Positions 22,101 to 49,760 of a stretch of DNA of 64,000 bases are shown here, one piece after another; position 1 is the first letter of the stretch; each line of letters opens with the position of its first letter. Source of the stretch: the human T2T-CHM13v2.0 reference genome, Homo sapiens; contig CP068257.2 in the NCBI GenBank assembly GCA_009914755.4, forward strand, positions 192,001 to 256,000. Reading direction: 5' to 3'. The notes under the pieces are model-generated. The model was not told where the DNA came from. It ran no database searches and saw only the letters and a program-made list of their open reading frames with translations. The translations under genes were made by a program, and so were the position numbers.

Positions 22101-22855
22101 GAATTTCACTGACTTACTCCCCAGTCTCTCTCATATTCTCACCCCCAGCCCTCAGGGACTCTTCTGTCTCTCTCAGCTACTCTCCAGCCATCTCCACATC
22201 ACACCTGGGGTCAGCTTCCCACACCCAGGAATCACCTACAAACTCACGGACCTTACTGCAACCCTCCCCCATTTCTTTCACCTCTTCACCCCCTGCTTTC
22301 AGGGACTCTCCTGTGTCTCCCAGCTTCTCTCCAGCCTTCCCCAGATTTCTGCCACAGTCAGCCCCAGGCACCCAGGGTTACCCTGGACACTCACAGGCCT
22401 CACGAGACTATTTCCCAATGACTTGTATCTATAGAGGGATGGCTCCCATACTTCCCTCGGTGACCTCAAACCCATCTCCACTTACACTCAGACACTCCCA
22501 GGGCCTGACAGCTACTCCCCGTTATTGTCCTTCAGCTCGAAGCCCTGGCCCATCTACTAGCCAACATGATGCAGCTACCTGGCCATGTCTCCACATTTCT
22601 GGGGAGGGCCCCACACCCAGCCGCAGAAGAGCCCCTCCTGCATTCCGTCCTCACACACAGGCCTGTCCATCCACTTGCTACTGTCACACTCTTGCCAGCA
22701 GAAGAGGCCCCTGTAATGGCCGATATCACCGCCCAGTCTATCCTCACCCCACAGCTGTGCAGCGGGACCCTCCTGCTGGCCCACGTGGCTGCCACAGCCC
22801 ATGCTGGCACGACGCTCCAGCATGTCGGCGTCCCTGCGGGTCACGCTACTGCTGA
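19154..22855 (+). CDS. Candidate intronless ORF of 1233 aa. It is a paralog of the unit-1 ORF with one fewer 48-aa repeat.
   Basis: It uses the same frame, start context and C-terminus as the unit-1 ORF. The length difference is exactly 48 codons. Confidence 0.4.
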   Translation: MSAPKNTRVLSGSSYKRSPSPDSPRSMLASPSFSLSPLRNSDLRGSSSPGIRSYHSPSPRASPHSPLSSPVSHNLPFPCPIRDGQSMKPLGSPVSSSEDSTESPRSSVIYHMFLLPSPSSSPPALWESPGSPSYSPNNPRFQLESAPHTQDSPANSRASRCSSPMSFISSPPGLRDSPVAPSYSQAIPMFLRESAPCTQESPRDSQVSGEYERSPSPDSSRFMPASPSIYLSPPRNSDPRGTSSQGMWKCSTSSRRASPLSHPSSAEFHNFTFPFPNQAGQSLMSLCSPVSSSGDSSQSPHSSIIYHVFLVPSSSSSPPATNDSPVCPSYSPTTPRFQRASVSNTPETPTNSQTSVRSSPVSLTSSPPGLTDPPVSPSYYPTTRTFHRGSDPGTQGSPASPPLSLCYSPVSSTSLSPTLRDSPVCPSYSPTTPTFQRESVAGSQQSPANSPISLNYSPVSLMSSPALRDSPICPSYSPTTPRFQLEAVPCTQESPPNSPTSLNYSPVSLMSSPSLRDSPVCLSYSPTTPTFQLEYLRGTPESPPNSPISLNYTPVSLMSSPAIRDSPVCPSYSPKTPTFQLESVAGTLESPPNSPISLNYSPVSLMSSPALRDSTVCPSYSPTTPRFQLEAVPCTPESPPNSPISLNYSLVSLMSSPALRDPPVCPSYSPTTPRFQLESVPGTPESPPNSPVSLSYSPVSLMSSPPALRDSPVCPSYSPTTPTFQLESVPGTPESPPNSPISLNYSPVSLMSSPALRDSPVCPSYSPTTPRFQLEAVPCTPESPPNSPISLNYSLVSLMSSPVLRDPPVCPSYSPTTPRFQLESVPGTAESPPNSPVSLSYSPFSLMSSQPALRDSPVCPRYSPTTPTFQLESLAGTQELPTNSAVSLSYSPVSLMSSAPAPWDSPVCPSSSPNTPRFQRESASHTPESPTDSQTSRRSSLVSLRSLPTAHRDSCVSFSYSRNFSRFQLDSVPGTHDTPPNSRISLTYSPVSLIFSPPALRDSSVSLSYSPAISTSHLGSASHTQESPTNSRTLLQPSPISFTSSPPAFRDSPVSPSFSPAFPRFLPQSAPGTQGYPGHSQASRDYFPMTCIYRGMAPILPSVTSNPSPLTLRHSQGLTATPRYCPSARSPGPSTSQHDAATWPCLHISGEGPTPSRRRAPPAFRPHTQACPSTCYCHTLASRRGPCNGRYHRPVYPHPTAVQRDPPAGPRGCHSPCWHDAPACRRPCGSRYC
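20490..21937 (+). repeat. 144-bp minisatellite in unit 3, about 10 copies.
   Basis: Same period and motif. Confidence 0.95.
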
Positions 22856-26157: not shown

Positions 26158-29100
26158 ATGTCTGCACCTAAGAACACTAGGGTCTTGTCTGGCTCTTCTT
26201 ATGAACGGTCCCCCAGCCCGGACTCCCCAAGATCCATGCTAGCCTCACCCAGCTTCTCCCTCTCCCCTCTCAGAAACTCAGACTTAAGAGGAAGCTCCTC
26301 ACCAGGGATCCGGAGCTAACATTCACCATCCCCTAGGGCTTCACCACACTCACCTCTGTCATCACCAGTATCCCCCAATCTCCCATTTCCCTGTCCTATC
26401 CGTGATGGGCAATCAATGAAGCCATTGGGCTCTCCCGTGTCCTCCTCTGAGGATTCTACAGTCACCACATTCATCAGTAATATACCACATGTTCCTACTG
26501 CCATCACCCAGCAGCTCACCCCCAGCTCTCTGGGAGTCTCCTGGGTCTCCCAGCTACTCTCCAAACAACCCCAGATTTCAGCTGGAGTCAGCCCCCCACA
26601 CCCAGGAATCACCTGCAAACTCACGAGCCTCACGGTGCTCCTCCCCTATGTCTTTCATCTCTTCACCCCCAGGCCTCAGGGACTCTCCTGTGGCTCCCAG
26701 TTACTCTCAAGCCATCCCCATGTTCCTGCGGGAGTCAGCCCCATGCACTCAGGAGTCCCCCAGAGACTCACAGGTCTCGGGAGAATATGAGCGGTCCCCC
26801 AGCCCTGACTCCTCAAGATTCATGCCTGCCTCACCCAGCATCTACCTCTCCCCTCCCAGGAACTCAGACCCAAGGGGCAGCTCCTCACAAGGGATGTGGA
26901 AGTACTCTACATCATCCCGCAGGGCTTCACCACTCTCACATCCGTCATCGGCAGAATTCCACAACTTTACATTTCCCTTTCCTAACCAAGCAGGACAATC
27001 ACTCATGTCATTGTGTTCTCCCGTGTCCTCCTCTGGAGATTCCTCACAGTCACCCCATTCATCAATAATATACCATATGTTCTTACTGCCATCATCCAGC
27101 AGCTCACCCCCAGCCACCAATGACTCTCCTGTCTGTCCCAGCTACTCTCCAACTACGCCCAGATTTCAGCAGGCGTCGGTATCCAACACCCCAGAAACAC
27201 CTACAAACTCACAGACCTCAGTGAGATCCTCGCCAGTCTCTCTCACGTCTTCACCCCCAGGCCTTACGGACCCTCCAGTCTCTCCCAGCTACTATCCAAC
27301 CACGCGCACATTTCAGCGCGGGTCAGATCCAGGAACCCAGGGATCACCCGCAAGCCCACCACTTTCACTGTGTTACTCCCCAGTCTCAAGCACGTCTTTA
27401 TCTCCAACCCTCAGGGACTCTCCTGTCTGTCCCAGCTATTCTCCAACCACGCCCACGTTTCAGCGGGAGTCCGTTGCAGGCACCCAGCAATCACCAGCAA
27501 ACTCACCAATTTCACTCAATTACTCTCCAGTCTCTCTCATGTCTTCACCAGCCCTCAGGGACTCTCCCATCTGTCCCAGCTACTCTCCAACCATGCCCAG
27601 ATGTCAGCTGGAAGCAGTTCCTTGCACCCAGGAATCACCACCAAACTCACCAATTTCACTCAATTACTCCGCAGTCTCTCTCATGTCTTCACCAGCCCTC
27701 AGGGACTCTCCCGTCTGTCTCAGCTACTCTCCAACCACGCCACATTTCAGCTGGAGTCAGATCCAGGCACCCCGGAGTCACCACCAAACTCACCAATTTC
27801 ACTCAATTGCTCTCCATTCTCTCTCATGTCTTCAGCAGCCATCAGGGACTCTCCCGTCTGTCCCAGCTAGTCTCCAACCACGCCCACATTTCAGCTGGAG
27901 TCAGATCCAGGCACCCCGGAGTCACCACCAAACTCTCCAATTTCACTCAATTACTCTCCAGTCTCTCTCATGTCTTCACCAGCCCTCAGGGACTCTCCCG
28001 TCTGTCCCAGCTACTGTCCAACGACGCCCAGATTTCAGCTGGAAGCAGTTTCTTGCTCCCCAGAATCAACACCAAACTCACCAATTTCACTCAATTACTC
28101 TCCAGTCTCTCTCATGTCTTCACCAGCCATCAGGGACTCTCCCGTCTGTCCCAGCTACTCTCCAACCACGCCCACATTTCAGCTGGAGTCACTTCCAGGC
28201 ACCCCAGAGTCACCACCAAACTCACCAATTTCACTCAATTTCTCTCCAGTCTCTCCGATGTCTTCACCAGCCCTCAGGGACTCTACTGTCTGTCCCAGCT
28301 AGTCTCCAACCACGCCCAGATTTCAGCTGGAAGCAGTTCCTTTCACCCCGGAATCACCTCCAAACTCACCAATTTCACTCAATTACTCTCTAGTCTCTCT
28401 CATGTCTTCACCAGCCTCAGGGACCCTCCTGTCTGTCACAGCTACTCTCCAACCACCCCCAGATTTCAGCTGGAGTCAGTTCCAGGCACCCCGGAGTCAC
28501 CACCAAACTCACCAGTTTCACTGAGGTACTCCCCGGTCTCTCTCATGTCTTCACCGCCAGCCCTCAGGGACTCTCCTGTGTGTCCCAGCTACTCTCCAAC
28601 CACGCCCACATTTCAGCTGGAGTCACTTGCAGGCACCCAGGAATTACCTACAAACTCAGCAGTTTCACTGAGTTACTCCCCAGTCTCTCTCATGTCTTCA
28701 GCCCCAGCCCCCTGGGACTCTCCTGTCTGTCCCAGCTCCTCTCCCACCACGCCCAGATTTCAGAGGGAGTCAGCCTCCCACACTCTGGAATCACCTGCAG
28801 ACTCACAGACTTCACGGAGGTCCTCCCTGATCTCTCTCAAGTCTTTGCCCTCAGCCCACAGGGACTCTTGTGTCTCTTTCAGCTACTCTCGAAACTTCTC
28901 TAGATTCCAGCTGGACTCAGTTCCAGGCACCCACGACACACCACCAAACTCACGAATTTCACTGACTTACTGCCCAGTCTCTCTCATGTTCTCACCCCCA
29001 GCCCTCAGGGACTCTTCTGTCTCTCTCAGCTACTCTCCAACCATCTCCACATCACACCTGGGGTCAGCTTCCCACACCCAGGAATCACCTACAAACTCAC

Positions 29101-29708
29101 GGACCTTACTGCAACCCTCCCCCATTTCTTTCACCTCTTCACCCCCTGCTTTCTGGGACTCTCCTGTGTCTCCCAGCTTCTCTCCAGCCTTCCCCAGATT
29201 TCTGCCACAGTCAGCCCCAGGCACCCAGGGGAACCCTGGACACTCATAGTCCTCACGAGACTATTTCCCAATGACTTGTATCTATAGAGCGATGGCTCCC
29301 ATGCTTCCCTCAGTGACCCCAAACCCATCTCCACTTACACTCAGACACTCCCAGGGCCTGACAGCTACTCCCCGTTATTGTCCTTCAGCTCGAAGCCCTG
29401 GCCCATCTACTAGCCAACATGATGCAGCTACCTGGCCATGTCTCCACATTTCTGGGGAGGGCCCCACACCCAGCCGCAGAAGAGCCCCTCCTGCATTCCG
29501 TCCTCACACACAGGCCTGTCCATCCACTTGCTACTGTCACACTCTTGCCAGCAGAAGAGGCCCCTGTAATGGCCGATATCACCGCCCAGTCTATCCTCAC
29601 CCCACAGCTGTGCAGCGGGACCCTCCTGCTGGCCCACGTGGCTGCCACAGCCCATGCTGGCACGACGCTCCAGCATGTCGGCGTCCCTGCGGGCCACGCT
29701 ACCGCTGA
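26158..29708 (+). pseudogene. Disrupted copy of the S/P-rich ORF in unit 4. It has the same TAC>TAA stop at 26317-26319 and several later frameshifts and stops.
   Basis: ATG at 26158 and TAA at 26317. The ORF track fragments are 26489..28393, 27474..29249 and 29271..29708. Stops occur at cccagctagtctcc near 27870 and 28300. Confidence 0.4.
27492..28790 (+). repeat. 144-bp minisatellite in unit 4, about 9 copies, with indels.
   Basis: Same period and motif. Frameshifting indels are present. Confidence 0.9.
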
Positions 29709-32147: not shown

Positions 32148-34400
32148 TCACATCAATTTCTGGGTGGATCCTTAAGCTCCAGGTGGATATCCAGTGTCCA
32201 GCTGAACATCATCCCCTCGTGGACGCCCAGTACCCAGGTGGATATCAGGTCTCAGGTGAACACAAGTCACCAGTCAGACATGAAGCACGAGGTACACACT
32301 CAGACCCCAAGAGGACATCTGTCTCCATGTTGACATCACTCTCAAGGTGTACATTAGGCCACATATGTACACCCAGTTCCAAGGCATACACGAGTCCCCA
32401 GTAAAACTCAAGGCCCCAGGAGGAGACTCAAGCCGTAGGTGGATGCCCAGACCCCAGGTAATTACAAGGCCCCAGGTGGATATCAGATTCCAGATGAACA
32501 TTAGGCCCCAAGTGGATACCTAGGCCCCTAGTAAACCTCAGATTCTAGGTTGACATTGAGGCCCCCAGTAGTCATTTGGACCCATGTTGACACTCAGGTG
32601 CCAGGTTCACATGATGTCTTAACTGGACACCAAGGGGCCAGTTTGATACCCAAGTCCTGTGTGGGTGCCAGGTCCAGGGTTACACTCAAGCCCCAAGTGG
32701 ACACCAGGCCCTAGGTGAATAACACAACCCAGGTGGTCATTAGGCCCCAGAATGACACCATCCCCCAGGTTAACAGGAAGCCCCCAGTGGGTACCTAGGC
32801 CCCAGGTGGACATCAGGCCTAATGTGGACACCCAGGATCAAGATGGACATCAGGACTCAGGTGGACATCTGGTGACAGGTGGACAACAAGCCTGGTGTGT
32901 ACCTTGTCCCCGGGTGGTCATCAGGCCCCAGTTCAACACCAGTCCCTGGGTGGATTCCTCGGCTCCAGGTGGACATCCGGTCTTCAGCTGAACATCAGAC
33001 CCCAGGTGAACACCAGGTCTTAGGTGGACATTAGGCCCCTGGTGGACATAAAGTACCAGTGGACATCCATGCTGCAGGTGGACACCCAGCGCCCAGATGG
33101 GCATCAGGCCACATTTGGACATTGAGGCCCCAGGTGGATATCACGCCTCAGGTGAACCCAAGGTCCAACATAGACATCAGGCCTTAGGTTGATGCTCAAG
33201 CACCAGATGGACTGCTGCACCTAAGCAGAAAATAGACCCCTATCTGGATATCTAAGATACAGGTATACAACAAGCCCCAGGCTGACATCCAGACCCCAGG
33301 TGGACACCATACCCCAGGTGAACAGCAGGCAACAGTTTGGCACCAAGTGCCTAAGTGAAACAAAGCCTTAGGTGGTTACCAGGCCATAGGTAGTCATTAG
33401 TCTCCAGCTGGACAATAGTCCCTAGGTGGATACCTAGGCCCCAGGTGGACACTAGACCCCAAATTAACACAAAAACCAAGTAAAAAATCAAGCCCCAAGT
33501 GGACAACCAGGCCCTAGGTAAATACACAAATCTCAAGCTGACACCAGGACCTATTTGGACACCCAAGCCCTAGGTGGACTTCAGGCCACAGGTGAACACT
33601 GAACTCTAGAAGGTCTTCAGGCACCGTGTTGACTACCTGGCCCCAGGGGGACACCAGGTATAGATGAACTTCAGGCACCAGCTGTACATGAGGTTCCAGG
33701 CAAATGTCCAGGCCCCAGGTGGATATCAAACCTCAGATGAACACCAGGCCCCAGGTAGACATCACAAACCAAGTGGACACTCAGGCCCCTACTGAATATC
33801 CATCCCCAGGTGGACATCCATCCCAAGGTGGACATGAGGTCACAGATGTACACTTAAGCCTAAGGCAGACCCCAGGCCCCGGGAAAACTCCAGGCTCCAT
33901 GAGGGCACTCAGACCCCAGGTGGATGCATTGGTCCTAGGTAAATACAAGGCCCCAGATAGACATCAGGCTCCAGTGAACACCGGAGCCCAGGTGGGTACC
34001 TAGTGTCCAGGTGTGCAACAAGCAGAAGGTTGACCCAGTCCCCAGCTGAACTCTGGGCCCCAGCTGGACATCATAACCCAGATCGTCACCCAGGCGGTCA
34101 CCCAGGCTCCAGGTGAACACATGGTCTTAGGTAGACATCAGGCCCCACATGAACACCCAAGCCCCAGGTAGATAACAGGCCTTAGATGTACACCAGACCT
34201 CAGGTGGGCATCTGGCTTCAGATGGCCGTAGGTGGATAACTAAGCCTCTCCTGGATATCAGGCCCCAGGTAGACACCAGGCTCCAGGCGAACATCTAGCC
34301 CCAGGGGGACATCCAGCCCCCGGTGAACATCAGGGCTCACATGGATAAACAGTTTACAGATGGGCACCTGCCACAGGTGCCTCACCTCTACTCCCTGAAA
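32148..34400. repeat. Degenerate satellite of about 18-19 bp, consensus close to CCCAGGTGGACATCAGGC, about 120 copies.
   Basis: The TGGACA/AGGTG core recurs every 18-19 bp throughout. The block abuts the truncated macrosatellite unit. Confidence 0.85.
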
Positions 34401-37400
34401 CCTCACTTCCCCTCATGGGCCTTCTGTCCGACTTGGGGTACCCCTAGCCGCCCTAGGCACACACTGGACTCGAACCAGGGGTGCCAGAGTCCCTAGGGCT
34501 CAGCGCAAGGGTTCATGGGAATACACTTTCGTCCGTGGGGGACCCAGTCCTCAATTCTCGGTGGCGCAGTTTTTTTTTCTCTGCCACAGGTACCTCACCT
34601 TCCCCTCATGGGCCTTCTGTACACCTTGGGGTACCCCTAGCGGCCCGAGGCATACCCTGGGCTCGAACCAGGGATGCCAGGGTACCCGGGGCGCAGCGCA
34701 AGGGCTGATGGGGAGACACTTTCTTCCGTGGGGGACCCAGGCCCCGCTTCTCTGAGGCGCGTTTTTTTTTTCCTCTGCCCCAGGTGGGTCACCTTCCCCT
34801 CATGGGCCTTCTGCCCGCTTTGGGGTACCCCTAGCGGCCCCAGGCACACACTGGGCTCGAATAAGGGTCGCCAGGTTCCCCGGGGCCCAGCGCAAGGGTT
34901 GATGGGAAGACGCTTTCACCCGTGGGGGACCCAGGCCCCGCTTCTCCGCAGTGCGGTTTTTTTTTTGTTTGCCCTAGGTGACTCACCTTCCCCTCATGGG
35001 CCTTCTGTCTGCTTTGGGTTACCCCTAGCAGGCCAGAGGTGCACCCTGGATTCCAGCCAGGGATGCCAGGGTCCCCGGGGCCCAGTGCAGGGGCTGATGA
35101 GAAGGCATTTTCGTCCGTGGGGTACCCAGGCCCTGCTTCTCTGTGGCGCAGTTTTATTTTTTTCTTTTCTGCCACAGGTGCCTTACCTCTCCTCCCTCAA
35201 ACCTCACCTTCACCTCATAGGCTTTCTGTCCGCCATGGGGTACCCCAAGAGGCCCGAAGCGCACCCTGGTCTTGAACCAGGGATGCCAGGGTCCCCTGGG
35301 CCCAGCTCAGGGGCTGATGGGAAGACACTTTCATCCGTGGGGGACCCAGGCCCCGCTTCTCCGTGGCAGTTTTTTTTTTCTCTGCCTCAGGTGCCTCACC
35401 TTCCCCTCATGGGCCTTCTGCCCGCTTTTTGGTACCCCTAGCGAGCCCAAGGCGCACCCTGGGCTCGAACGAGGGTCGCCATGGTCGACGGGGCCCAGCG
35501 CAGGGGCTGATGGGAAGGCACTTTCATCCGTGGGGGACCCAGGCCCCGCTACTCCGTGGTCCAGTTTTTTTTTTTTTTTTCCTCTGCCCCAGGTGCCTTA
35601 CCTTTCCTCCCTCAAACCTCACCTTCCACTCCTGGGCTTTCTGCCTGCGTTGGAGTACCTCTAGCGACCCGAGCACACCCTGGGCTCGAACCAGAGACGC
35701 CACGGTTCCTGGGGCCCAGTGCAGGGGCTGATGGGAAGACACTTTCGTCCGTGGGGGACCCAGGGCCCGCTTCTCGGCGGCGCGGTTTTTTTTCTCTGCC
35801 CCAGGTGCCTCACCTTCCCCTCAGGGGCCTTCTGCCTACGTTGGGATACCCTAGCAGTCCCGAGGCGCACCCTGGGCTCTAACCAGGGACGCCAGGGTCC
35901 ACAGGGCCCAGCTCAGGGGCTGATGGGAAGACACTTTCGTCTGTGGGGGACCCAAGCTCTGCTCCTCCGCAGGGTTGTTTTTTATTTTTTTCTCTTCCCC
36001 AGGTGGCTCACCTTCCCTTCATGGGCTTTCTGCTCGCCTTTGGGTACCCCTAGTGGGCCTGAGGCTCACCCTGGTTTCGAGCCAGGGATGCTAGGGTCCT
36101 CGGGGCCCAGCGCAGCGCTGATGGGAAGGGATTTCTGTCCGTGGGGGACCCAGGGCCCGCTTCTCCGAGGTGAGTTTTTTTTTTTTCTGCCGCAGGTGCT
36201 TCACCTCTCCTCCCTCAAACCTCACCTTCCCCTCATGAACCCTCTGCCCGCCTAGAGGTACCGCTAGCGGCCCAAGGCACACCCTGTGGCTGAACCAGGG
36301 ACGCCAGGGTCCCTGCGGCCCAGCACAGGCGCTGATGGGAAGACACTTTCTTTCGTGGAGGACCCAGGCCCCGTTTCTCAGTGGCGTGGATTTTTTTCTC
36401 TGCCCGGGTGCCTCACCTTCCTCTAATGGGCCTTTTGCCCGCTTTGGGTTACCTCTAGCAGGCCCTATTCGCACCCTGGGCTCGAACCAGGGTCGCAGTG
36501 TCCACGAGGTCCAGCGCAAGGCCTGATGGGAAGGCACTTTCGTCAGTGGGGGACCCAGGCCTCGCTTCACTGTGGCGTGTTTTTTGTGTGTGTGTGTGCC
36601 ACAGGTGCCTCACCTTCCCCTCATGGGCTTTCTGTCCACCTTGGGGTACCCCCAGCTGCCCGAGGCGCACCCTCGTCTCAAATCAGGGATGCCAGGGTCC
36701 CTGGGGCCCAGCGCAGGGCCTGATGGGGAGGCACTTTCGTCTGTGGGGGACCCATGCCCTGCTTCTCCGTGGCGCGGTTTTTTTTTTTTTTCCTGCCACA
36801 GGTGCCTCACCTCTCCTTCCTCAAACCTTACCTTCCCCTTATGGGCCTTCTGTCTGCCTTGGGGTACACCTAGCGGCCCGAGGTGCACTGTGGGCTCGAA
36901 CCAGGGACTCCAGGGTCCCTGAGGTCCAGGGCAAGGCCTGATGGGAAGACACTTTCGTCCGTGTGGGGGACCCAGTCCCCGCTTCTCCGCGGCGAGGTTT
37001 TTTTTTCCTCTGCCCCAGGTGCCTCACCTTCCCCTCTTGTGCCTTCTGCACGCTTTGGGGTACCCCTAGCGGCCCGAGGCACACCCTGGGCTCGAACCAT
37101 GGAAGCCAGGTTCCACGGGGCCAAGCACAGTGGCTGATGGGAAGACACGTTCTTCCTTGGGGACCCAGGCTCTGCTTCTCTGCAGCGTTTTTTTTTTCTT
37201 TCCCCCAGGTGACTCACTTTCCCGTCATGGGCTTTCTGCCCGCCTTGCGGTACCCATAGCGGGCCCGAGGCGCACCCTGGTTTTGAGCCAGGGATGCTAG
37301 GGTCTCCGGGGCCCAGTGCAGGGCTGATGGGTAGGGACGTTCGTCCATGGGGGACCCAGGCCCCACTTCTGGGCGGTGCAGTTTTTTATTTTTTTCTCTG

Positions 37401-39950
37401 CCCCAGGTGTCTCACCTTTCCCTCATGGGCCTTCTGTCTGTCTTGGGGTACCCCTAGCAGGCCGAGGTGCACGCTGGGCTTGAGCCAGGGATACCAGGGT
37501 CCCCGGGGCGCAGTGCAAGCACTGATGGGAAGACAGTTTCTTCTGTGGGGGACCCAGGCCCCGCTTATCCGCGGCGCGGTTGTTGTTTTTTTTTTTCTCT
37601 GCCCCACGTGCGTCACCTTCCCCTCATGGGCCTTCTGCCCGCTTTTGGGTACCCCTAGCAGCCTGAAGCCCACCCTGGTCTCGAACCAGGAATGCCAGGG
37701 TCCCCTGGGCCCAGCGCAAGGGCTGATGGGAAGACACTTTCGTCCGTTGGGGACCCAGGCTCTGCTCCGTGGTGCAGTTTTTTTTTTTCTGCCACAGGTG
37801 CCTCACCTCTCCTTCCTCAAACCTCAACTGCCCCTCATGGGATTTCTGCCCGCCTTGTGGTGCACCTAGCGGGCCCGAGGCGCACCTGGGGCTCGAACCG
37901 GGGTCTCCAGCGTCCACAGGGCCCAGCGCAGTGACTGATGGGAAGGCATTTTCATCCGTGGGGGACCCAGGCCCAGCTTCTCCTAGGCGCGGCTTGTTTT
38001 CTTTTTTTTTTCTGCCACAGGTTCCTCACCTCTCCTCCCTCAAACGTCAACTTCCCATCATGGGCTTTCTGCCCGACTTGGGGTACCCCTAGTGGCCCAA
38101 GGCGCTCCCTGGACTCGAACCATGGATGCCAGGGTTGCTGGGGCCTAGCGCAGGGGCTGATGGGAAGGTACCTTCATCCGTGGGTAACCAGGCCCTGCTT
38201 CTCAAAGCTGCGTTTTTTTTTTCTCCGCCCCAGGTGCCTCACCTTCCCCTCATTGGCCTTCTGCCTGCTTTGGAGTACCACGAGCAGGCCCGAGGCACTC
38301 CCGGGTCTCCAACCAGGGTCGCCAGGTTGTCGGGGCCAGCGCAGGAGCTGATGGGAAGGCACTTTCATCAGTGGGGACCCAGGCCCGGCTTCTCCGAGGT
38401 GCTGATATATATATATATATTTTTTCTGCCACAGGTGACTCACCTCTCCTCCCTTAAATCTCACCTTCCCCTCATGGGCTTTCTGGCTTCCTTAGGGTAC
38501 CCTAGAGTGCCGGAGTCTCTTCTGGTCCTTGAACTAGGGTCGCCATGGTCCAGGGGGCCCAGCGCAGGGGCTGATGAGAAGGCACTTTCATCCGTGGGAG
38601 ACCCAGGCCCCGCTTCTCCTCGGCACGGTTTTTTTTTTCTGCCACAGGTGCCTCACCTCTCCTCCCTCAAACCTCACCTTCCCCTCATGGGCCTTCTGCC
38701 CGCTTTGGGGTACACCTAGCAGGCCCGAGGTGCACCCAGGCCTAGAACCAGGGTCGCCTGAGTCCACGGGGCCCAGCGCAGAGACTGATGGGAAGGCACT
38801 TTTTTTCCATGGGAGACCCAGGCCCCACTTCTCCGTGGCGCGGTTTCTTTTTCTTTTCTGCCACAAGTGTCTCACCTCTCCTCCCTCACAGCTCACCTTC
38901 CTCTCATGGACTTTCCACCACGTTGGGGTACCCCTAATGGCCCGAGGCTCTCCCTGAGCTCGAACCAGGGACTCTAGGTTCCCCGGGACCCAGCGCAGGG
39001 GCTGATGGGAAGGCACTTTCATCCGTGGGGGACCCAGGCCCCACCTCTCCGTGGCGCGGGTTTCTTTTTTTCTTTTTCTGTGACAGGTGCCTCACCTCTC
39101 CTCCCTCAAAACTCACCTTCCCCTCATGGGCTTTGTGTCCCCAAAGCCCCCCTTGGGGTGCACTTAGTGGCCGAGGCACACCCTGAGCTCGAACGAGGGA
39201 CACCAGGGTCCCTGGGTCCCAGTGCAGGGACTGATGGGAAGACACTTTCGTCCGTGGGGCACCCAGGCCGTGCTTCTCCGCAGCGAAGTTTTTCTTTTTT
39301 TCTCTGCCCCAGGAGCCTCACCTTCTCCTTAGGGGCTTTCTGCCCACCTTGGGGTACCCCTACTGTCCTGAGGCATACCCCATTGTCAAACCAGGGATGC
39401 CAGGGTCCCCAGGGCCCAGCAAAGGGGCTGATGGGATGGCACTTTCATCCGTGGGGGGCCCAGGCACTGCTTCTCGGCTGAGCGTTTTTTTTTCTCTGCC
39501 TCAGGTGCCTCACCTTCCCCTCATGGACCTTTTGTTCGCTTTGTGGTACCCCAAGCTGACCCGAGGCACACCCTGGGCTCGAACCAGGGTCGTCAGGGTC
39601 CACCAGGCCCAGCATAGGGCCTGATGGGAAGGCACTTTCATCCGTGGGGGACCCAGGTCCCGCTTCTCTGAGACGCGGTCCTCTTTTTTTTTTTTTCTGC
39701 CCCTGGTGCCTCACCTCTCCTCCCACAAACTTCAACTTCCACTCATGGGCCTTCTGTCCAAGTTGGGGTACCCCTAGTCGCCTGAGGCACACACTGGGCG
39801 TGAACCAGGGATGCCAGGGTCCCTGGGGCCCAGCGCAAGGGCTGATGGGAAAAAACTTTCGTCCCTGGATGACCCAGACACCGCTTCGCGGCGCATTTTT
39901 TTTTCTTCTTTGCCCCAGGTGTCTCACCTTCCCCTCATGGGCCTTCTGCC
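34400..39950. repeat. CpG-rich tandem repeat of about 195 bp, with a 218-bp variant carrying a 21-bp insert. It has about 27 copies, each with a T8-T16 tract and a GGTTCGAGCCC B-box-like hairpin on the minus strand.
   Basis: Poly-T tracts recur at intervals of 188-225 bp, at 34569, 34763, 34957 and onward to 39897. The conserved core is gggctcgaaccagggatgccagggtcc...ctgatgggaagacactttcgtccgtgggggacccaggccccgcttctccgtggcgcgg. Confidence 0.9.
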
Positions 39951-40262
39951 TCTCTGCGCCTTTCGCCAGCGCTGTGGGCCTCTCTGCACCTGCGCCGGCG
40001 CTGTGCGCCTTTGCGAGGGCGGAGCTGCGTTCTTCCCAGCACAGACAAGGAGAGCATCGCCAGGGCGGAGCTGAGTTCTCCTCTGCACAGACTTCAGAGA
40101 TACAGCGAAGGCGGAGCAGTGTTCTCCTCAGCACAGACCCAGGCGGGCCGGGGGCACTGCGAGGGCGGAGCTGCGTTCAGCTCAGCACAGACCCGGGGGA
40201 CACCGCTAAGGCAGAGCAGCGTTCTCAGCACAGACCTTTGGGGCACTGCCTCGCTTTGGGAC
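39950..40262. repeat. Tandem repeat of about 48 bp, five copies. The unit is ggcggagctgcgttct..cagcacagac.
   Basis: ggcggagc recurs at about 40018, 40063, 40119, 40163 and 40214. Confidence 0.8.
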
Positions 40263-40639
40263 AACTCGGGACCGCATAGACCGTGAATAAAATCCTTCCC
40301 TTTTGCAGCCCTGAATAATCAGGGTCAGAGACCAGTTAGAAGGGCTCAGTGTGGAAAAGGGAAGCCAAAAGCCCCTCTGAATCCTGCCCACCGAGGTTCT
40401 CCCCAGCCAAGCCGAGGCGGCCGCAGTGCGAGATCCACACCGCAGCCTCGGAAGACAAATGCAGCATTCCTAATGCAGACATGACACCCAAAATATGACA
40501 CCCCCATTGCTCATGTAACAAGCACCTGTAATGCTAATGCACTGCCTCAATACAAAAATATTAATATAAGATCCGCAATCCCCTTGCTGCCATGCAGTCC
40601 TAAGACAGAGATCATAATAATCAACATTGACATAGTACA

Positions 40640-40950
40640 AACCTAGTAACGAACCTAGGGTTAAGGTTGGTGTTAGGGTTAGGGGTTAGGGGTTAAGTTT
40701 AAGGTTAGGGGTTGGAGATAGGGGTTGGGGTCAGAGTTAAGAGTTAAGAGTCAACGTTTAGAGTTAGAGGTTAGGAGAGGTTAGGGGTTAGGGATAAGGG
40801 GTTAGGGTTGGATTAGTGTGAGGGTGAGGGTTGGGGTTAGGGGTTAGGCTTAGGGTTTACGGTTAAGGGTTAGGGTTAGGGTCAGGGGTTAGGGGTCAGG
40901 GTCAGGGGTTAAGGATCAGGGACAGGGGTCAGGGTCAGTTTCAGGGGTCC
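40640..40950 (+). repeat. Degenerate interstitial telomere-like (TTAGGG)n tract with the G-strand on the + strand.
   Basis: Direct read of ggttaggggttaggggttaagtttaaggttaggg...gggttagggttagggtcaggggttagggg. Confidence 0.85.
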
Positions 40951-43504
40951 CACTCTTTGAGTTGTCCATTTACTCTGCTGACAGTTCCCTTTGCCATGAA
41001 AAAGCTGTTTAGTTTAATTAAGTCCCAGCTATTTATCTTTGTTTTTATTGCATTTGCATTTGGGTTCTTGGTCATGAAATCCTTGCGTATGTCAATGTCT
41101 AGAAGGGTTTATCCAGTGTTATCTTCTAGAATTTTTATAGTTCAGGAATTAGATTTAAGTTCTTAATCCATCTTGAGTAGATTTTTGTATAAGATGAGAG
41201 ATGAGAATCCATTTTTATTCCCCTACATGTGGCTCGCCAATTATCCCAACAGCATGTGTTGAAAAGGGGGTCCTTTCCCCACTTTATGTTTTTGTTTGCT
41301 TTGTCGAAGATCAGTTGGCTGTAAGTATTTGGGTTAATTTCTGGGTTCTCTCTTCTGTTCCATTGGTCTATGTTCCTATTTTTAAACCAGTACGTTGGTG
41401 TTTTGGTAACTATGGCCTTATTGTACAGTTTGAAATCAAGTAGTGTGATACCTCCAGGTTCTTTTTGCTTAGGCTTGGTTTGGTTACATGGCTCTTTTTT
41501 GGTTCCATATTAATTTTAGAATTGTTTTTGTAATTCTGTGAAGAATGATGGTGGCATTCAGATGGGGATTGCATTGAATTTGTAGATTGCCTTTAACAGA
41601 ATGGTAATTTTCACAATATTGGTTCTACCCATCCATGAGCATGGGGATGCGTTTCCATTTGTGTGTGTCATCTATGATTTCTTTTCTTTCGTTTTTTTTT
41701 TTTTTTTTTTTTTTTTCAGAGGGAGTTTCGCTCTTGTCGCTGAGGTGGGAGTGCAATGGTGTGATCTCGGCTCACTACAACTTCTGCCTCCCGGGTTGAA
41801 GCGATTCTCCTGCCTCAGCTTCCCGAGTAGCTCGGATTATAGGCATGTGCCACCGTGCTTGGCTCCATCTATGATTTCTTTCAGTAGTGTTTTGTAATTT
41901 TCATTCTAGCTGTCCTTTGATTTCTTTGCTAGGTATATTCCTAAGTTTTGTTTTTTTGTTGTTGTTGTTTGTCGCAGCTATTGTAAAAGGGGTTGAGTTC
42001 TTGATGTGATTCTCTGCTTGGTAGCTGTTGATGTATGGAAGAGCTACTGATTTGTGTCCATTAATCTTGTATCTGGAAACTTTGCTGAATTCTTTTATCA
42101 GTTCTAGGAGGTTTCTAGAGGAGTCCGTAGGGTTTTCTAGGCAAAAGATTATATCATCAGCAACAAGTGACAGTTTGACTTCCTCTTTACCGATTTGGAT
42201 TTCCTCTATTTCCTTCTTTTGTCTGATTGCTCTGGCTAGGACTTCCAGTACTATGTTGAAGAGGAGTGGTGAGAGTAGGCTCCTCATCTTGTTCCAGTTC
42301 TCAAAGGGAATGCTTTCACCGTTTCCCCATTCAGTATTATGTTGGCTGTGGGTTTTTCATAGATGGCTTTTATTACATTAAGGTATGTCGCTTGTATGCC
42401 TATTTTGCTGAGAGCTTTAATCATAAAGCAATGCTAGATTTTGTCAAATGTTTTTTTCTGCGCCTGTTGATATAATTATATTAGATTTTTTTTAATTCTG
42501 TTTATTTGGTGTATCACACTTATTGACTTGCATATGTGAAACCACTCCTATATCATTGGTATAAAACCCACTTGATCATGCTGGATTATTTTTTGATATG
42601 TTGTCGGATTCAGTTAGATAGTATTTTGTTAAGGATTTTGGCATCTGCATTCATCAAGGATATTGGTCTGTAGTTTTCTTTTTTGGTTATGTCCTTCCAT
42701 GGTTTTGGTATTAGAGTGATGCTGGCTTCATAGAATGAATAAGGGAGGGTTTCTTCTTTCTCTGTTTTGTGGAATAGTATGAAAAGATTGGTATCATTTC
42801 TTCCTTGAATGAAAGAAGACATTCTTTGAATGTCTGGTAGAATTCTGCTGTGAATCTGTCTGGCCCTCAGCTTTTTTTGCTGGTAATTTTAAAATTACCA
42901 TTTCAATCTTACTGCTTGCTTTATTGGTCTGCTTGGGGTATCTAATTCTTCCTGATTTAAGCTAGGAGAGTTGTATTTTTCCAGGAATTTATCCAACTCT
43001 TCTAGGTTTTGTAGTTTATGTGCCAAAAGGTGTTCATAGTACCCTTGAATAATCTTTAATATTTCAGTGGTGTCAGTTGTAATATCCCGTTTCATTTCTT
43101 AGTGAGGTTATTTGGATTTTCTCTCTTCTTTTCTTGGTTAATCTTGCTAATGGTCTATCAATTTTATTTATCTTTTCAAATAAGCAACTTTTTGTTTTAT
43201 TTATGTTTTGTATTTGTTGTTGTTGTTGTTGTCGTTGTGTCAATTTCATTTAGTTCTGCTCTGATCTTTGTTATTTCCTGTGTTTGCTGGGATTGGGTTT
43301 GGCTTGTTCCTGCTTCTCTAGTTCCCTGAGATGTGAACTTAGATTGTCTGTTTGTGCTCTTTCAGACTTTTTGATGTAGGTTTTTAGGACTACAAACTTT
43401 GCTCTTAGCAGTGCCTTTGCTGTATCCCAGAGGTCTTGATAGGTTGTGTCATCCAGTTCGAAGAAATTTTTTACATTTCCATCTTGATTTCATTTTTCAC
43501 CCAA
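40937..43504 (-). mobile_element. L1 fragment carrying part of ORF2. It is truncated at its 3' end against the TTAGGG-like tract.
   Basis: Minus-strand ORFs 41901..42287, 42610..42822 and 42895..43095 encode L1 ORF2 reverse-transcriptase and endonuclease peptides ([14 protein letters not shown]..., [13 protein letters not shown]...). Confidence 0.9.
41693..41862 (-). mobile_element. Partial Alu inserted in the L1, flanked by the target-site duplication catctatgatttctt.
   Basis: The poly-T at 41693-41716 is followed by the reverse-complement Alu body. The 15-bp direct repeat sits at about 41664 and about 41866. Confidence 0.9.
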
Positions 43505-46500
43505 TGCTCATTCTGTGAGGAACAACCAAATTGTTTTCCGCAGCAAGGGCATCATTTTCTATTCCTAGCAGCCAGATCATGAGGACTCCAACTTCTCCAC
43601 CTCCTTAGCAACATTTATTTTCTGTGTCATTGTTATGAAAGCCTTACTTGTGGATGCAGAGTGGCATGAATGAAGTCAATTAACACGTTTATTACCTCAC
43701 AGAATAGTCACCTTTTTGTGTGCATGGGTGGGATAAGAAAACTTAACTCTATCCCCTGTGACGGAATAGTGGCCATTCCAGCTGCTCCAGGCTCCAGCAG
43801 AGGAAGACCGGGGTATGTGGCCCCACCAGGGTGACCCTCAGGCCTGGCGCGCACGCATTCCAGAGGCCACCCAAACCATGCTCCGCCATCTGGGCGCCCA
43901 AGCTGCCGTCGCCCTCTGTGTGCAGGCAGCAGCTGCCTGGCAACCCCTGAGCCCGCTCGCGCTCCTAGCATCACAGAAGCAGGGCCACGTGTCCCAGTGG
44001 CTGCAGCCAAGCCAGGCATTCTGCCCTGCGGCAGCAGCTGCACAGGAGCGAGAACTGAGAACCCACCGCTCAACCCCACACGAGGTGACTGCCGAGTGCC
44101 CATACAAACGGCTCCGATCTCCCTCAGGTGGAGGAGTGGGCGGGAGGCACGGCCTGGGGGCCCTCAGGCTGGGCGCGCTGGCGATCCCAAGGCCGACCAG
44201 GCCATGCACCTCCAGCCTGCCTGGGCACCCGAGCTGCAGCCGCCTTCTGCGTGCAGGCAGCAGCCTCCAGGCAACTCCCGAGCCCGCCCACACTCCCCAC
44301 ATCTCGGAAGCAGGGCCAAATGTCCCTGTGGCTGTGGCCAAGCCAGGCGGTCTCTCCTGCAGCAGCTGCACAGGGGCGGGAACCGGCCCTCAGCCCCATT
44401 CCCGGTGGCTGTAGAGGGCCCCTGGATAGAGATCTGGAGCTCTGACAGAGGAGGAGCCGGGCCGGGGCAGGGTCTGGCAGGCTCTCAGGCCAGGGGCACC
44501 TGTGATCCAGAGGCGGCCCAGGGCATGCTCCACCACCTGGGCACCCAGCTACAGGCGCCGGGCGACTCCCAAGCTGGCTGCCACGCCCAGCCTCGCAGAA
44601 CCGAGGCTAGATGTCGCCGTGGCTGCGACCAAGCCAGGCGGTCTTCCCAGGGGTGGCTGCACCGGGGCAGGAACCGACCCTCAGCCCCATCCCCGGTGGC
44701 TGCAGACGGACCCTGGGGCGGCCCCGATCTCTCTTCGGAGGAGGAGAGGGGCGGGAGTCACGGCCAGGCGGGCCCTCAGGCGGGAAGGAATGCGCGCCTG
44801 CGATTCCGGGACGTCCCGCGCCAGCCCAGGAAAACCCGCAAGCCAGCGGCGCCTGTTTCTCTGTGTGATTCTTTGAGGAACCACCAAACTGTTTTCCACA
44901 GCAAGTGCATCATTTTCTATTCCTAGCAGCCAGTTCATGAGGGCTCCAGTTTCTCCACTTCCTTAGCAACATTGATTTTCTGTGTCGTTGTTATGAAAGC
45001 CTTACTAGTGGATGCAAAGTGGCATCTCATTTGGGTTTTGCCTTGCATTTTATTAATGAATAATGGTGTTTAGCATCTTTTCTTTTCCTTCTTAGACATT
45101 TGTGTATCTTCTTTGGAGAAACGTCTGTTCAAGTCCTTTGCCTATTTTTTAATTGGGATCTTAGAAATTCTGTTGTTGAGTTGTGGGATATTAAGCTTTT
45201 ATCAGATACACATTTTGATTTTATCAGATACATATTTTCTCACATATTATGGGTTGTCTTTTCACTCCCTTGATAGTATCCTTTGATGCATAAAGGGTTT
45301 TTTATTTTGATTAAATCTAATTTTCGTGTATTTTCTTTTGTTATCTGTGCTTTTCTGTCATATTTCAAAATACACTTAAAACTCAAAGGTCATAAAGGTT
45401 TACCGTGTGTTTTCTTCTAAGAGTTACATATTTTTAGTCCTTACATTTAAGTCTTTTATTAATTTAGAATTAATTTTTGTATATACTGCAATGTAGGGGT
45501 CTAACTTCTCTCTTGTGCACTGATATCCAGCTGTTGAAGAAACTGTTCTTTCCTCCCTTGACTAGACTTGGCCACCTTGTTGAACAGTCATTGACCATAT
45601 ATGTGAGGACTAACTTGTAGGATCTCAAATCTGTTCTGTTGTATTGGTCTGAAAGTCTATTGGTCTTATTCCAGTACCACACTCTCTTGATTACTGTAGA
45701 TTTGTAGTAGGCTGTGAAACTGAAAAATGTGAGTTTTCCAATGTTCTTTTTCAAGACTGTTTTGTCTGTCAGATCCTTTGAATTTTTGTATGATTTTAGA
45801 ATGAGTTTCTTTGTTTCTGCAAAAATGCCTTTGGGATTTTGATGGTATTGCATTGAATCTGTAGATTACTTTAGATGGTATTGTCATCTTAACAATATTG
45901 TCTTACAACCCGTGAACACAGAATGTCTTTCCACTTATTTCCACTCTCTTTAGTTTTTTGCAGCAATGTTTTGTGTATACCACCATGGTTAGATTTATGC
46001 CTGAATAACGTATTCTTTGGTGTCATTATAAATGGAATTTTTAAAATGTTTTCATAGTTCTTTACAACTATATAGAAATATAGCTCATTTGCCTATGTTT
46101 GTTTGCATCCTGCCTCTTTTATTAGTTATAATCGGTTTTGTGTTTTGTTTGGAGCTTTATACCCATAAGATCATGTGTAGATATAATTTTACACCTATTC
46201 TTTATTTCTAATTTAGATGCCTTTTATTTCTTTGTCTTGCCTAATTGCTCTGGCTAGAACTGCCAGTGCTACGTTGAATACAAGTGGCAAATGCACCATC
46301 CTTTTCTTCTAGATGTTAGGAAAACAGCTTTCAGTGTTTCATCATTGATCATGATATTAACTGTTGGGTTTTTGTACATCCCATTGTCATGTTGCAGAAG
46401 ATCCCTTCTATGCCTAGTTTATTGAGTATTTTTATTATAGAAGGGTGTTATATTTCATCAATGTTTTCTCTGCATCAATTGAAATAGTCACGTGCTTATT

Positions 46501-47290: not shown

Positions 47291-47814
<524 letters not shown>

Positions 47815-48870: not shown

Positions 48871-49760
<890 letters not shown>

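What the first reader, a model, noticed from the sequence alone, without database searches (positions are those of the whole stretch)
39950..40950. Subtelomere-style architecture: GC-rich repeat stack, then about 380 bp unique, then degenerate (TTAGGG)n, with the G-strand pointing right
The order is a CpG-rich tandem repeat, then a 48-bp repeat, then a short unique segment, then about 300 bp of degenerate TTAGGG. It resembles the CpG-island repeat tracts that sit just proximal to human telomere arrays and act as TERRA promoters. However, the tract is internal here, and L1 and Alu DNA continue to the right. That is typical of an internal telomere-like island at a subtelomeric duplicon boundary, or of a relic of an ancestral chromosome end. 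Together with the macrosatellite, it suggests the window is subtelomeric or lies in an acrocentric or pericentromeric duplication zone.
Basis: partly seen in the sequence, partly recalled or inferred. Interest (0 to 1): 0.55.

Follow-up and report, generated by a model that had tools for sequence, protein, structure and literature searches.

The report
Internalised chromosome-end relic with TERRA-like promoter
This is a fossil chromosome end (subtelomeric promoter repeats followed by about 290 bp of decayed telomere repeats) that was joined to a broken L1 element and then copied many times as a segmental duplication; it belongs to a class of primate loci that is already described, so it is ordinary.

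Summary
Positions 39948-40946 hold 2.1 copies of a 29-bp repeat, five copies of a 46-54-bp repeat, about 415 bp of unique DNA, and 291 bp of degenerate TTAGGG with the G-strand on the + strand.

Seven published oligos designed on genuine subtelomeric TERRA promoters hit the window in the right order and orientation with 1-4 mismatches. They cover the 29-bp repeat, the 37-bp repeat and the "pre-tel" segment. Oligos for the 61-bp repeat are absent.

A metagenome scan gave 45 contigs, probably human host contamination. About 25 carry the same block at 96-99% substitution identity. Twenty-one, from 21 assemblies, cross the identical junction between telomere repeats and L1.

The variant-repeat pattern is shared for about 260 bp. 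After that, some copies run on into canonical TTAGGG and one joins other DNA.

The L1 lies on the minus strand and is cut inside ORF2.

The best reading is an internalised chromosome end within a segmental duplication. It matches the 29-37-pre-tel-ITS ("type K") interstitial TERRA-like promoters catalogued in T2T-CHM13 in 2025.

Novelty: already known. Chromosomal position and transcription could not be tested.

The parts
34401..39947 (+). Left flank: GC-rich tandem array, unit about 193-229 bp, about 27 copies. It abuts the 29-bp repeats directly.
   Evidence: TRF rows. GC 0.61, CpG o/e 0.45. It is present upstream of the same block in many paralogous contigs and is replaced by other sequence in at least two other contig classes.
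39948..40010 (+). 29-bp repeat tract, 2.1 units, homologous to the core element of subtelomeric TERRA promoters. Both units carry changes in the GCGCCTGCGC motif.
   Evidence: TRF. The 29-bp part of published oligo OT matches at 39981-39996 with 1 mismatch. The 26-mer GCGCCTCTCTGCGCCTGCGCCGGCGC, which I recalled from memory as the canonical unit, matches at 39976-40001 with 2 mismatches, with 0 expected by chance. Paralogues L043 and L026 carry one more, intact unit.
40011..40240 (+). '37-bp' repeat tract: five units with a real period of 46-54 bp. This is the expected zone of TERRA-type transcription starts.
   Evidence: Published oligos sub3 (40078, 3 mismatches) and ChIP-R (40175, 2 mismatches). 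CAGE tags and H3K4me3 map to the 37-bp repeats in PMC12242772.
40241..40516 (+). 'Pre-tel' unique segment, homologous to the DNA that directly precedes the telomere at many human chromosome ends.
   Evidence: Published oligos TF (40305), ChIP-F (40322), TR (40336) and 10q TERRA forward primer/Subtel2 (40379) match in order and orientation with 2-4 mismatches (sources). The published 15q primer spans ...GTTGCTCATGTGG|TTAGGGTT, whereas the window reads CATTGCTCATGTAACAAG and carries on.
40517..40655 (+). Extra AT-rich unique stretch between pre-tel and the telomere-like repeats. It may be the 'spacer' of Santagostino et al.; this was not checked by sequence.
   Evidence: Sequence read. Conserved in all paralogues, including those that run into canonical TTAGGG. 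The spacer class is described.
40656..40946 (+). Interstitial telomeric sequence: 291 bp of degenerate TTAGGG/TTAGGGG/TCAGGG/TTGGGG/TGAGGG units, G-strand on the + strand.
   Evidence: All three G-strand quadruplex motifs of the 64-kb window lie here. The variant order is shared unit for unit with the paralogues.
40947..43515 (-). L1 fragment on the minus strand, truncated at its 3' side exactly at the junction with the telomere-like repeats. It has no 3' UTR and no poly(A).
   Evidence: The minus-strand translation of about 40950-41560 aligns to human L1 ORF2p residues 832-1019, E=2e-43. A weak RVT_1 hit lies further right. The far limit of about ORF2 residue 165 at about 43515 rests on my own reading of the translation.
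41692..41865 (-). Alu-like fragment inserted into the L1, with poly(T) at its left end and a direct repeat of about 16 bp (CATCTATGATTTCTTT) on both sides.
   Evidence: Sequence read. It is homologous to the Alu at 48898-49033, which is the Metazoa_SRP hit. It is also present in paralogue L002.

Best explanation
The block 39948-40946 is the last kilobase of a former chromosome end that now lies inside the chromosome.

It keeps the terminal subtelomeric module in its native order and orientation: 29-bp repeats, '37-bp' repeats, the pre-tel segment, a spacer-like stretch, and then the variant-rich proximal part of the telomere array.

Inferred history:
1. A telomere carrying this module was joined at its distal side to a double-strand break inside a resident L1. 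End joining or translocation is the likely route.
2. The product was then spread as part of a segmental duplication.
3. The proximal side was later exchanged by recombination inside the 29-bp tract.

In published terms it is a 'type K' interstitial TERRA-like promoter next to an interstitial telomeric sequence (ITS).

Likely present-day role: mostly a relic. It may still drive low-level, rightward, G-rich 'iTERRA' transcription starting in the 37-bp repeats, and its TTAGGG-like tract may bind telomere proteins and form G-quadruplexes.

Shown here: homology to the canonical module, the multi-copy state, the shared junction, and the L1 truncation. Inferred: the joining mechanism, the order of events, and any transcription.
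For: - Collinear matches of seven published canonical-promoter oligos, each with fewer mismatches than the shuffle mean and all but one better than any of 30 shuffles (sources).
- The 29-37-pre-tel-ITS organisation without the 61-bp repeat is that of 55 interstitial loci in T2T-CHM13. The ITS length of 291 bp falls within their 201-878 bp range.
- 45 contigs were fetched with the 37-bp core. 25 of them align over at least 900 bp of 39948-40998 at 95.6-99.0% substitution identity.
- 21 contigs from 21 assemblies cross the same ITS/L1 junction.
- The order of telomere variant repeats is shared for about 260 bp. After that there are three distal outcomes: L1 (the window class); a further ~350 bp or more that become canonical TTAGGG up to the contig end (L043, L026); and unrelated unique DNA (L022).
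- At least three different proximal contexts meet the block inside the 29-bp tract.
- The L1 is on the minus strand and cut within ORF2 at the junction.
- There is no CCCTAA array anywhere.
Against: - The window could not be placed on a chromosome, and its species is not known.
- The closest sampled copy is 99.0% identical, not identical.
- The comparison contigs are short metagenome assemblies. I take them to be human host DNA from the sample names; only one says 'human skin'. They may be collapsed or chimeric among paralogues.
- Whether L043 and L026 end in a true telomere or in a longer internal tract is unknown.
- Both 29-bp units here have lost the GCGCCTGCGC motif that is intact in other copies.
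- The block has 35 CpG against 41 in the family consensus. Differences from the consensus are about six times denser at CpG columns. This argues against a maintained, unmethylated promoter.
- No expression or methylation data could be consulted.
Confidence: 0.85

Rival explanations
1. The ITS/L1 junction was made by endonuclease-independent L1 retrotransposition. The 3' G-overhang of a deprotected telomere would have primed reverse transcription inside an L1 RNA, so that antisense L1 cDNA was added straight onto the G-strand. The far end was then captured by other DNA.
For: The geometry fits. The G-strand is followed by L1 in antisense orientation, starting inside ORF2 with no poly(A). The mechanism itself (Morrish et al. 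2007, Nature) is cited from my own knowledge and was not checked here.
Against: The orientation alone has a one-in-two chance. By my reading, the L1 fragment is 5'-truncated and sits next to older L1 sequence, which is the normal look of a resident nested insertion that was later broken. There is no informative microhomology at the junction (GGGG|TCCCA). No copy of the acceptor site without the telomere block could be retrieved.
Confidence: 0.07
2. It is a simple short interstitial telomeric sequence inserted by telomerase during double-strand-break repair, unrelated to the neighbouring repeats.
For: Short ITSs of this origin are common in primate genomes (citing Nergadze et al. 2004 and 2007).
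Against: The tract is 291 bp, degenerate, and rich in proximal-telomere variants. It follows the pre-tel module, as at true chromosome ends. Its variant order is shared with copies that extend into canonical repeats.
Confidence: 0.02
3. It is a head-to-head ancestral telomere-telomere fusion point, like human 2q13-q14.
For: An internal telomere-like tract flanked by a TERRA-promoter-like block also occurs at the 2q14 fusion.
Against: The tract contains no CCCTAA and the whole 64 kb contains only one. The right flank is L1, not an inverted subtelomere. The junction is multi-copy.
Confidence: 0.01
4. It is an assembly artefact: a true chromosome end wrongly joined to L1-containing DNA in the source assembly.
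For: Subtelomeric and acrocentric duplications are prone to misassembly.
Against: The same junction, base for base, is present in 21 independently assembled contigs from 21 different assemblies.
Confidence: 0.02

Closest known systems
Interstitial TERRA-like promoters flanking ITSs, organisation 'type K' (Santagostino, Nergadze, Giulotto et al., bioRxiv 10.1101/2025.05.15.654290)
   Same: Both have 29-bp and 37-bp repeats plus pre-tel directly followed by a few hundred bp of telomere-like repeats, with no 61-bp repeat. Both lie in a multi-copy segmental duplication. The ITS length is within the reported 201-878 bp.
   Different: Identity with a specific catalogued locus could not be checked, because the supplementary tables are not held. 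This copy also has a spacer-like 139 bp before the repeats, and only about 2 decayed 29-bp units.
Canonical subtelomeric 61-29-37 CpG-island TERRA promoter (Nergadze et al. 2009; TelBam3.4/TelBam11 families; annotated as TAR1 by RepeatMasker)
   Same: The 29-bp, 37-bp and pre-tel modules are homologous, in the same order and orientation relative to the G-strand.
   Different: The 61-bp CTCF-bearing repeats and the upstream TAR1 part are absent. The block is not at a chromosome end. It is only borderline as a CpG island. The TAR1 label itself could not be tested, since no Repbase or Dfam library was available.
Telomere-like islands inside human subtelomeres ('subtelomeric ITS' of Azzalin et al. 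2001; duplicon-boundary (TTAGGG)n of Riethman, Linardopoulou and colleagues). Cited from my own knowledge.
   Same: A degenerate tract of several hundred bp, oriented like a terminal array, preceded by subtelomere-type sequence and associated with breakpoints between duplicated blocks.
   Different: In most sampled copies the duplication continues across the tract into the L1. The tract therefore marks an old boundary, not the current one.
Human 2q13-q14 ancestral telomere fusion
   Same: An internal telomere tract with TERRA-promoter-like flanks.
   Different: That site is head-to-head with two inverted arrays. This one is a single array joined to L1.

Membership tests
61-29-37 subtelomeric TERRA promoter | Tract of 29-bp repeats (the minimal promoter) | tested here: met
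   2.1 units at 39948-40010. The 29-bp part of oligo OT matches with 1 mismatch. The recalled 26-mer unit matches with 2 mismatches and 0 expected by chance.
61-29-37 subtelomeric TERRA promoter | Tract of '37-bp' repeats downstream of the 29-bp tract | tested here: met
   Four core matches plus a fifth with a deletion, at 40018-40235. Oligos sub3 and ChIP-R match with 3 and 2 mismatches.
61-29-37 subtelomeric TERRA promoter | Tract of 61-bp repeats carrying CTCF sites, upstream of the 29-bp tract | tested here: not met
   Oligos sub2 and PR give only chance-level best matches elsewhere in the window. No CTCF core motif lies near the block. The upstream DNA is a 193-bp array instead.
61-29-37 subtelomeric TERRA promoter | Pre-tel segment between the repeats and the telomeric tract | tested here: met
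   Four published oligos match collinearly at 40305-40397 with 2-4 mismatches.
61-29-37 subtelomeric TERRA promoter | CpG island | tested here: inconclusive
   Over 293 bp, GC is 0.66 and CpG o/e is 0.70, which just passes the classic thresholds. Over the whole 708-bp block o/e is 0.63. CpG sites are eroded relative to the paralogues.
61-29-37 subtelomeric TERRA promoter | Lies directly next to a terminal telomere | tested here: not met
   The tract is 291 bp long and is followed by L1 and 23 kb more of non-telomeric DNA.
61-29-37 subtelomeric TERRA promoter | Drives transcription of UUAGGG-containing RNA | not testable with these tools
   No expression, CAGE or methylation data were available. 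The literature reports transcription from loci of this class.
Type K interstitial TERRA-like promoter with ITS (T2T-CHM13 catalogue) | 29-37-pre-tel organisation lacking the 61-bp repeat, adjacent to an ITS of a few hundred bp | tested here: met
.
Type K interstitial TERRA-like promoter with ITS (T2T-CHM13 catalogue) | Embedded in a segmental duplication shared by many loci | tested here: met
   25 contigs align over at least 900 bp at 95.6-99.0% substitution identity. Homology extends from at least 32286 to 43391.
Type K interstitial TERRA-like promoter with ITS (T2T-CHM13 catalogue) | Corresponds to one of the 55 catalogued human loci (pericentromeric, subterminal or acrocentric short arm) | not testable with these tools
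   No primate genome was searchable and the supplementary tables are not held. The macrosatellite at 1-30 kb has the architecture reported for the acrocentric ACRO composite, which is suggestive only.
Fusion-type ITS (2q13-q14 type) | Two head-to-head arrays, (TTAGGG)n then (CCCTAA)n | tested here: not met
   There are 0 CCCTAA in the tract and 1 in the whole window.
Short telomerase-inserted ITS | A few near-perfect repeats inserted in otherwise unrelated unique DNA | tested here: not met
   The tract is 291 bp with only 24% of it covered by exact TTAGGG. It is preceded by the subtelomeric module.

The most novel reading that the evidence does not exclude
The telomere-to-L1 junction at 40946/40947 could be a fixed evolutionary fossil of endonuclease-independent L1 retrotransposition primed by an uncapped telomere's G-overhang. 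To my knowledge this event has so far been documented only in cultured, repair-deficient cells. Here it would have internalised a chromosome end, and the product was then amplified by segmental duplication to more than 20 copies.
Probability: 0.07. Interest if true: 0.5.

Novelty: already known. Interest (0 to 1): 0.15.

Why it matters
It matters little as a discovery. Loci of exactly this organisation were catalogued in T2T-CHM13, with 67 promoter-like blocks next to ITSs, 55 of them lacking the 61-bp repeat. They were shown to lie in segmental duplications and, for those tested, to give 'iTERRA' transcripts.

The block is useful as an annotation. It marks the window as part of a subtelomere-derived duplication family of primate genomes. 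Its orientation shows which way the former chromosome end pointed. The region may also cross-hybridise with, or soak up reads intended for, true telomeres and TERRA assays.

The paralogue comparison adds a small point. One and the same terminal module, with one variant-repeat pattern, is found with three different distal partners and at least three proximal partners. This illustrates the repeated use of this module as a recombination breakpoint.

Tried and rejected
- Collection scans with a 30-nt pre-tel pattern found nothing in genome contigs or viral contigs. The 37-bp-core pattern in metagenome contigs was the one that worked.
- tRNA idea: the 193-bp unit has a 'GGGCTCGAACC' stretch, but ARAGORN found no tRNA in the window.
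- Rfam at gathering thresholds gave only one Alu/SRP hit, at 48.9 kb.
- L1 strand: I first read the L1 as lying on the + strand, and then considered a twin-priming inversion as the origin of the junction. Both were wrong. The ORF2p alignment puts it on the minus strand. The second L1-like stretch at 44.9-47.2 kb reads, by eye, in the same orientation.
- Pfam on the stop-riddled translation gave only a sub-threshold RVT_1 hit (one search failed on stop codons).
- Canonical copies: I looked for canonical 61-29-37 copies among the fetched contigs. The more diverged ones (L027, L003, L019) turned out to be other interstitial copies, cut within pre-tel at window position 40313 and lacking any telomere tract.
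- CTCF core-motif scan: nothing near the block.
- Locus identification through an exact ORF look-up of a GTF2I-like exon: not on record.
- An apparent Alu-less paralogue (L002) was an alignment split; it has the Alu.
- Supplementary tables of the key preprint are not held.
Full report
**What is in the sequence**

- A long GC-rich array with a unit of about 193-229 bp (34401-39947) runs directly into a 29-bp repeat of 2.1 units (39948-40010).
- Next comes a repeat that TRF scores as period 46. Its core, GGCGGAGCNNNGTTCTCCTCAGCACAGAC, occurs four times with at most 3 mismatches at 40018, 40064, 40110 and 40164, against none in 100 shuffles. A fifth unit carries a 3-bp deletion.
- From 40241 to 40655 there is no internal repeat.
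- From 40656 to 40946 the sequence is degenerate TTAGGG. It has 12 exact TTAGGG and no CCCTAA. Hexamers within one mismatch of TTAGGG cover 70% of it, against 12% on average (26% at most) in 500 shuffles, and 0% on the other strand. It contains 137 G and 18 C, with GC skew +0.78.
- All three G-strand quadruplex motifs of the 64-kb window fall in this tract.

"CpG-rich" holds only weakly. CpG o/e is 0.70 at 66% GC over the 29+37 tract, 0.63 over the whole 708-bp block, and 0.45 in the 193-bp array.

**Is it homologous to real chromosome ends?**

No primate genome or repeat library was available, so I used published oligonucleotides designed on canonical subtelomeric TERRA promoters. They come from PMC6600276, PMC4218956 and PMC2847243.

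Seven of them find their best match in the window inside the block, in the correct order and orientation:

| Oligo | Module | Window position | Mismatches |
|---|---|---|---|
| OT (3' part) | 29-bp repeat | 39981 | 1 |
| sub3 | 37-bp repeat | 40078 | 3 |
| ChIP-R | 37-bp repeat | 40175 | 2 |
| TF | pre-tel | 40305 | 2 |
| ChIP-F | pre-tel | 40322 | 3 |
| TR | pre-tel | 40336 | 4 |
| 10q TERRA forward / Subtel2 | pre-tel | 40379 | 2 |

- Thirty composition-matched shuffles gave mean best matches of 3.5-6.5 mismatches.
- The two oligos from the 61-bp repeat, the one from the upstream TAR1 part, and the 10q reverse primer give only chance-level matches elsewhere in the window.
- A CTCF core motif is absent near the block.
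- The published 15q reverse primer spans the canonical junction ...GTTGCTCATGTGG|TTAGGGTT. The window has CATTGCTCATGTAACAAG at 40507 and then 139 more AT-rich bases before the repeats start.

So the block has the 29-bp, 37-bp and pre-tel modules of the canonical promoter plus a spacer-like extension. It lacks the 61-bp module.

**Related copies**

Scans with a pre-tel pattern found nothing in the bacterial-genome and viral collections. A scan of metagenome contigs with the 37-bp core returned 45 contigs. I take these to be human host DNA from human-associated samples; one is labelled as a human skin metagenome.
- 25 contigs align with at least 900 bp of 39948-40998 at 95.6-99.0% identity, counting substitutions only. 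The closest are L011 and L005.
- The window nests within their diversity. It is 1% from its nearest sampled copy, while many contigs have partners at 99.4-99.7%.
- Homology extends from at least 32286 (L028) to 43391 (L039).
- 21 contigs from 21 different assemblies cross the junction between the telomere-like tract and the L1 by at least 50 bp, and the junction is the same base for base. The junction is therefore real, old and multi-copy, not an assembly error.

**What the alignment says about origin**

In alignment A1 the order of variant units in the tract is shared by all copies for about 260 bp. This pattern includes TTAAGG, TTGGTG, TTAGGGG, the AGAG-rich stretch, TGAGGG x2 and TTTACGG. 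Beyond that point there are three outcomes:
- The window class ends in a TCAGGG-rich tail and then L1.
- L043 and L026 continue for a further ~350 bp or more of repeats that become canonical TTAGGG at the contig end.
- L022 ends earlier and joins unrelated unique DNA.

On the proximal side, the same block is preceded by the 193-bp array in the window class. Two other contig classes have two different unique sequences there, with the switch inside the 29-bp tract. A fourth class has an inverted copy of the GC-rich segment that lies at 43.8-44.7 kb in the window. Other contigs carry the 29/37 module cut within pre-tel at window position 40313 and have no telomere tract.

This is what is expected of the proximal, variant-rich part of a real telomere and its subtelomeric module once they have been joined to different partners and copied. 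It is not what a short telomerase-mediated insertion or a head-to-head fusion would look like.

**The right flank**

The minus-strand translation of about 40950-41560 aligns to human L1 ORF2p residues 832-1019 with E=2e-43. A weak reverse-transcriptase hit lies further right.

The L1 therefore lies antisense to the G-strand. It is cut inside ORF2 at about residue 1036 at the junction, with no 3' UTR or poly(A). By my reading it runs to about residue 165 near 43515. An Alu-like fragment sits in it and is shared with a paralogue.

The simplest account is that a resident, 5'-truncated L1 was broken and its right-hand part was joined to a telomere. The same geometry would also arise if a deprotected telomere's 3' overhang had primed reverse transcription on L1 RNA. 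I cannot exclude that and give it about 7%.

**State of this copy**

Neither 29-bp unit keeps the GCGCCTGCGC motif. One unit reads GCACCTGCGC and the other GCGCCTTTCGCC. L043 and L026 have an additional intact unit, and another contig class keeps an intact unit. PMC6600276 assigns two putative NRF1 sites to each 29-bp unit; which bases form them is my own inference.

The block has 35 CpG against 41 in the family consensus. Differences from the consensus are 6 of 81 CpG columns against 8 of 626 other columns. This looks like slow decay under methylation, not a protected promoter.

**Comparison with the literature**

Santagostino et al. (bioRxiv 10.1101/2025.05.15.654290) searched T2T-CHM13v2.0 and reported the following:
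- 39 subtelomeric and 106 interstitial TERRA-like promoters.
- 67 of the interstitial ones lie next to ITSs of 201-878 bp.
- 55 of these ("type K") lack the 61-bp repeat.
- 105 of the 106 lie in annotated segmental duplications.
- 29 of the 106 are on acrocentric short arms.
- One flank cluster holds 22 type K loci, 16 of them acrocentric.
- All tested promoter-flanked ITSs gave transcripts.

Hsieh et al. (PMC12242772) place CAGE tags and H3K4me3 on the 37-bp repeats. If this copy is transcribed, the start should therefore be around 40016-40240.

The block meets the organisational definition of type K. It fails two defining features of the canonical terminal promoter: the 61-bp repeats and terminal position.

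**Position in the genome**

This was not testable. Two hints favour an acrocentric or pericentromeric duplication zone.
- The macrosatellite at 1-30 kb has 144-147-bp arrays of 2-4 kb inside a 7-9-kb unit. That is the architecture reported for the ACRO1-containing composite, which is more than 90% acrocentric.
- The published distribution of type K loci points the same way.

Neither hint is a sequence-level test.

**Verdict**

The feature is a member of an already described class, and its interest is low.

Noticed in passing
window 1-30500: Macrosatellite with a unit of about 7.0-8.9 kb. Each unit holds (TCCT)n, (CA)n and a 2.0-4.1-kb array of 144-147-bp repeats (4117-6517, 11242-15376, 20120-22376, 27122-29226). 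The architecture matches published descriptions of the ACRO1-containing composite of acrocentric short arms, but no ACRO1 consensus was available for a sequence check.
   Followed up: partly
window 34401-39947: Tandem array of about 27 units of 193-229 bp, GC 0.61. Each unit has a T-run followed by ...CAG|GTGCCTCACC. The unit begins with a GGGCCTTCTGCC stretch that resembles the 29-bp repeat it abuts. It is present upstream of the promoter-like block in many paralogues and replaced by other DNA in others. I could not name the repeat.
   Followed up: partly
window 43780-44850, flanked by 43520-43670 and 44870-45030: GC-rich segment with about three copies of a ~330-bp unit, lying between two near-duplicate pieces of old L1 sequence. 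In contigs L036 and L021 an inverted copy of this segment sits directly upstream of another copy of the 29/37 block.
   Followed up: partly
window 47524-47655 (+): Exon-like ORF that starts [16 protein letters not shown]...[15 protein letters not shown] and ends at a GT. From memory it resembles the N-terminus of GTF2I (TFII-I), which would suggest a GTF2I pseudogene fragment. An exact-sequence look-up found nothing, and no homology search was run.
   Followed up: partly
window 58016-61636: 75-76-bp tandem repeat with internal palindromes (...ATATCACAAGGGGGTGTACACCCCCTGTGATAT...), in three blocks and partly inverted. It may be a known telomere-associated satellite, but that is from memory only and untested.
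   Followed up: no
window 32686-34331: Degenerate 18-bp repeat (CCCCAGGTGGACA...) just left of the 193-bp array. It is shared with paralogous contigs L014 and L028.
   Followed up: no
L027:10336-10640 (also L003, L019, L009, L032, L025, L040): Further copies of the 29/37 block that stop within pre-tel at the position equal to window 40313. They continue into unrelated GC-rich DNA with no telomere-like tract. These are probably the 'interstitial promoters not flanked by ITS' of the 2025 catalogue.
   Followed up: partly
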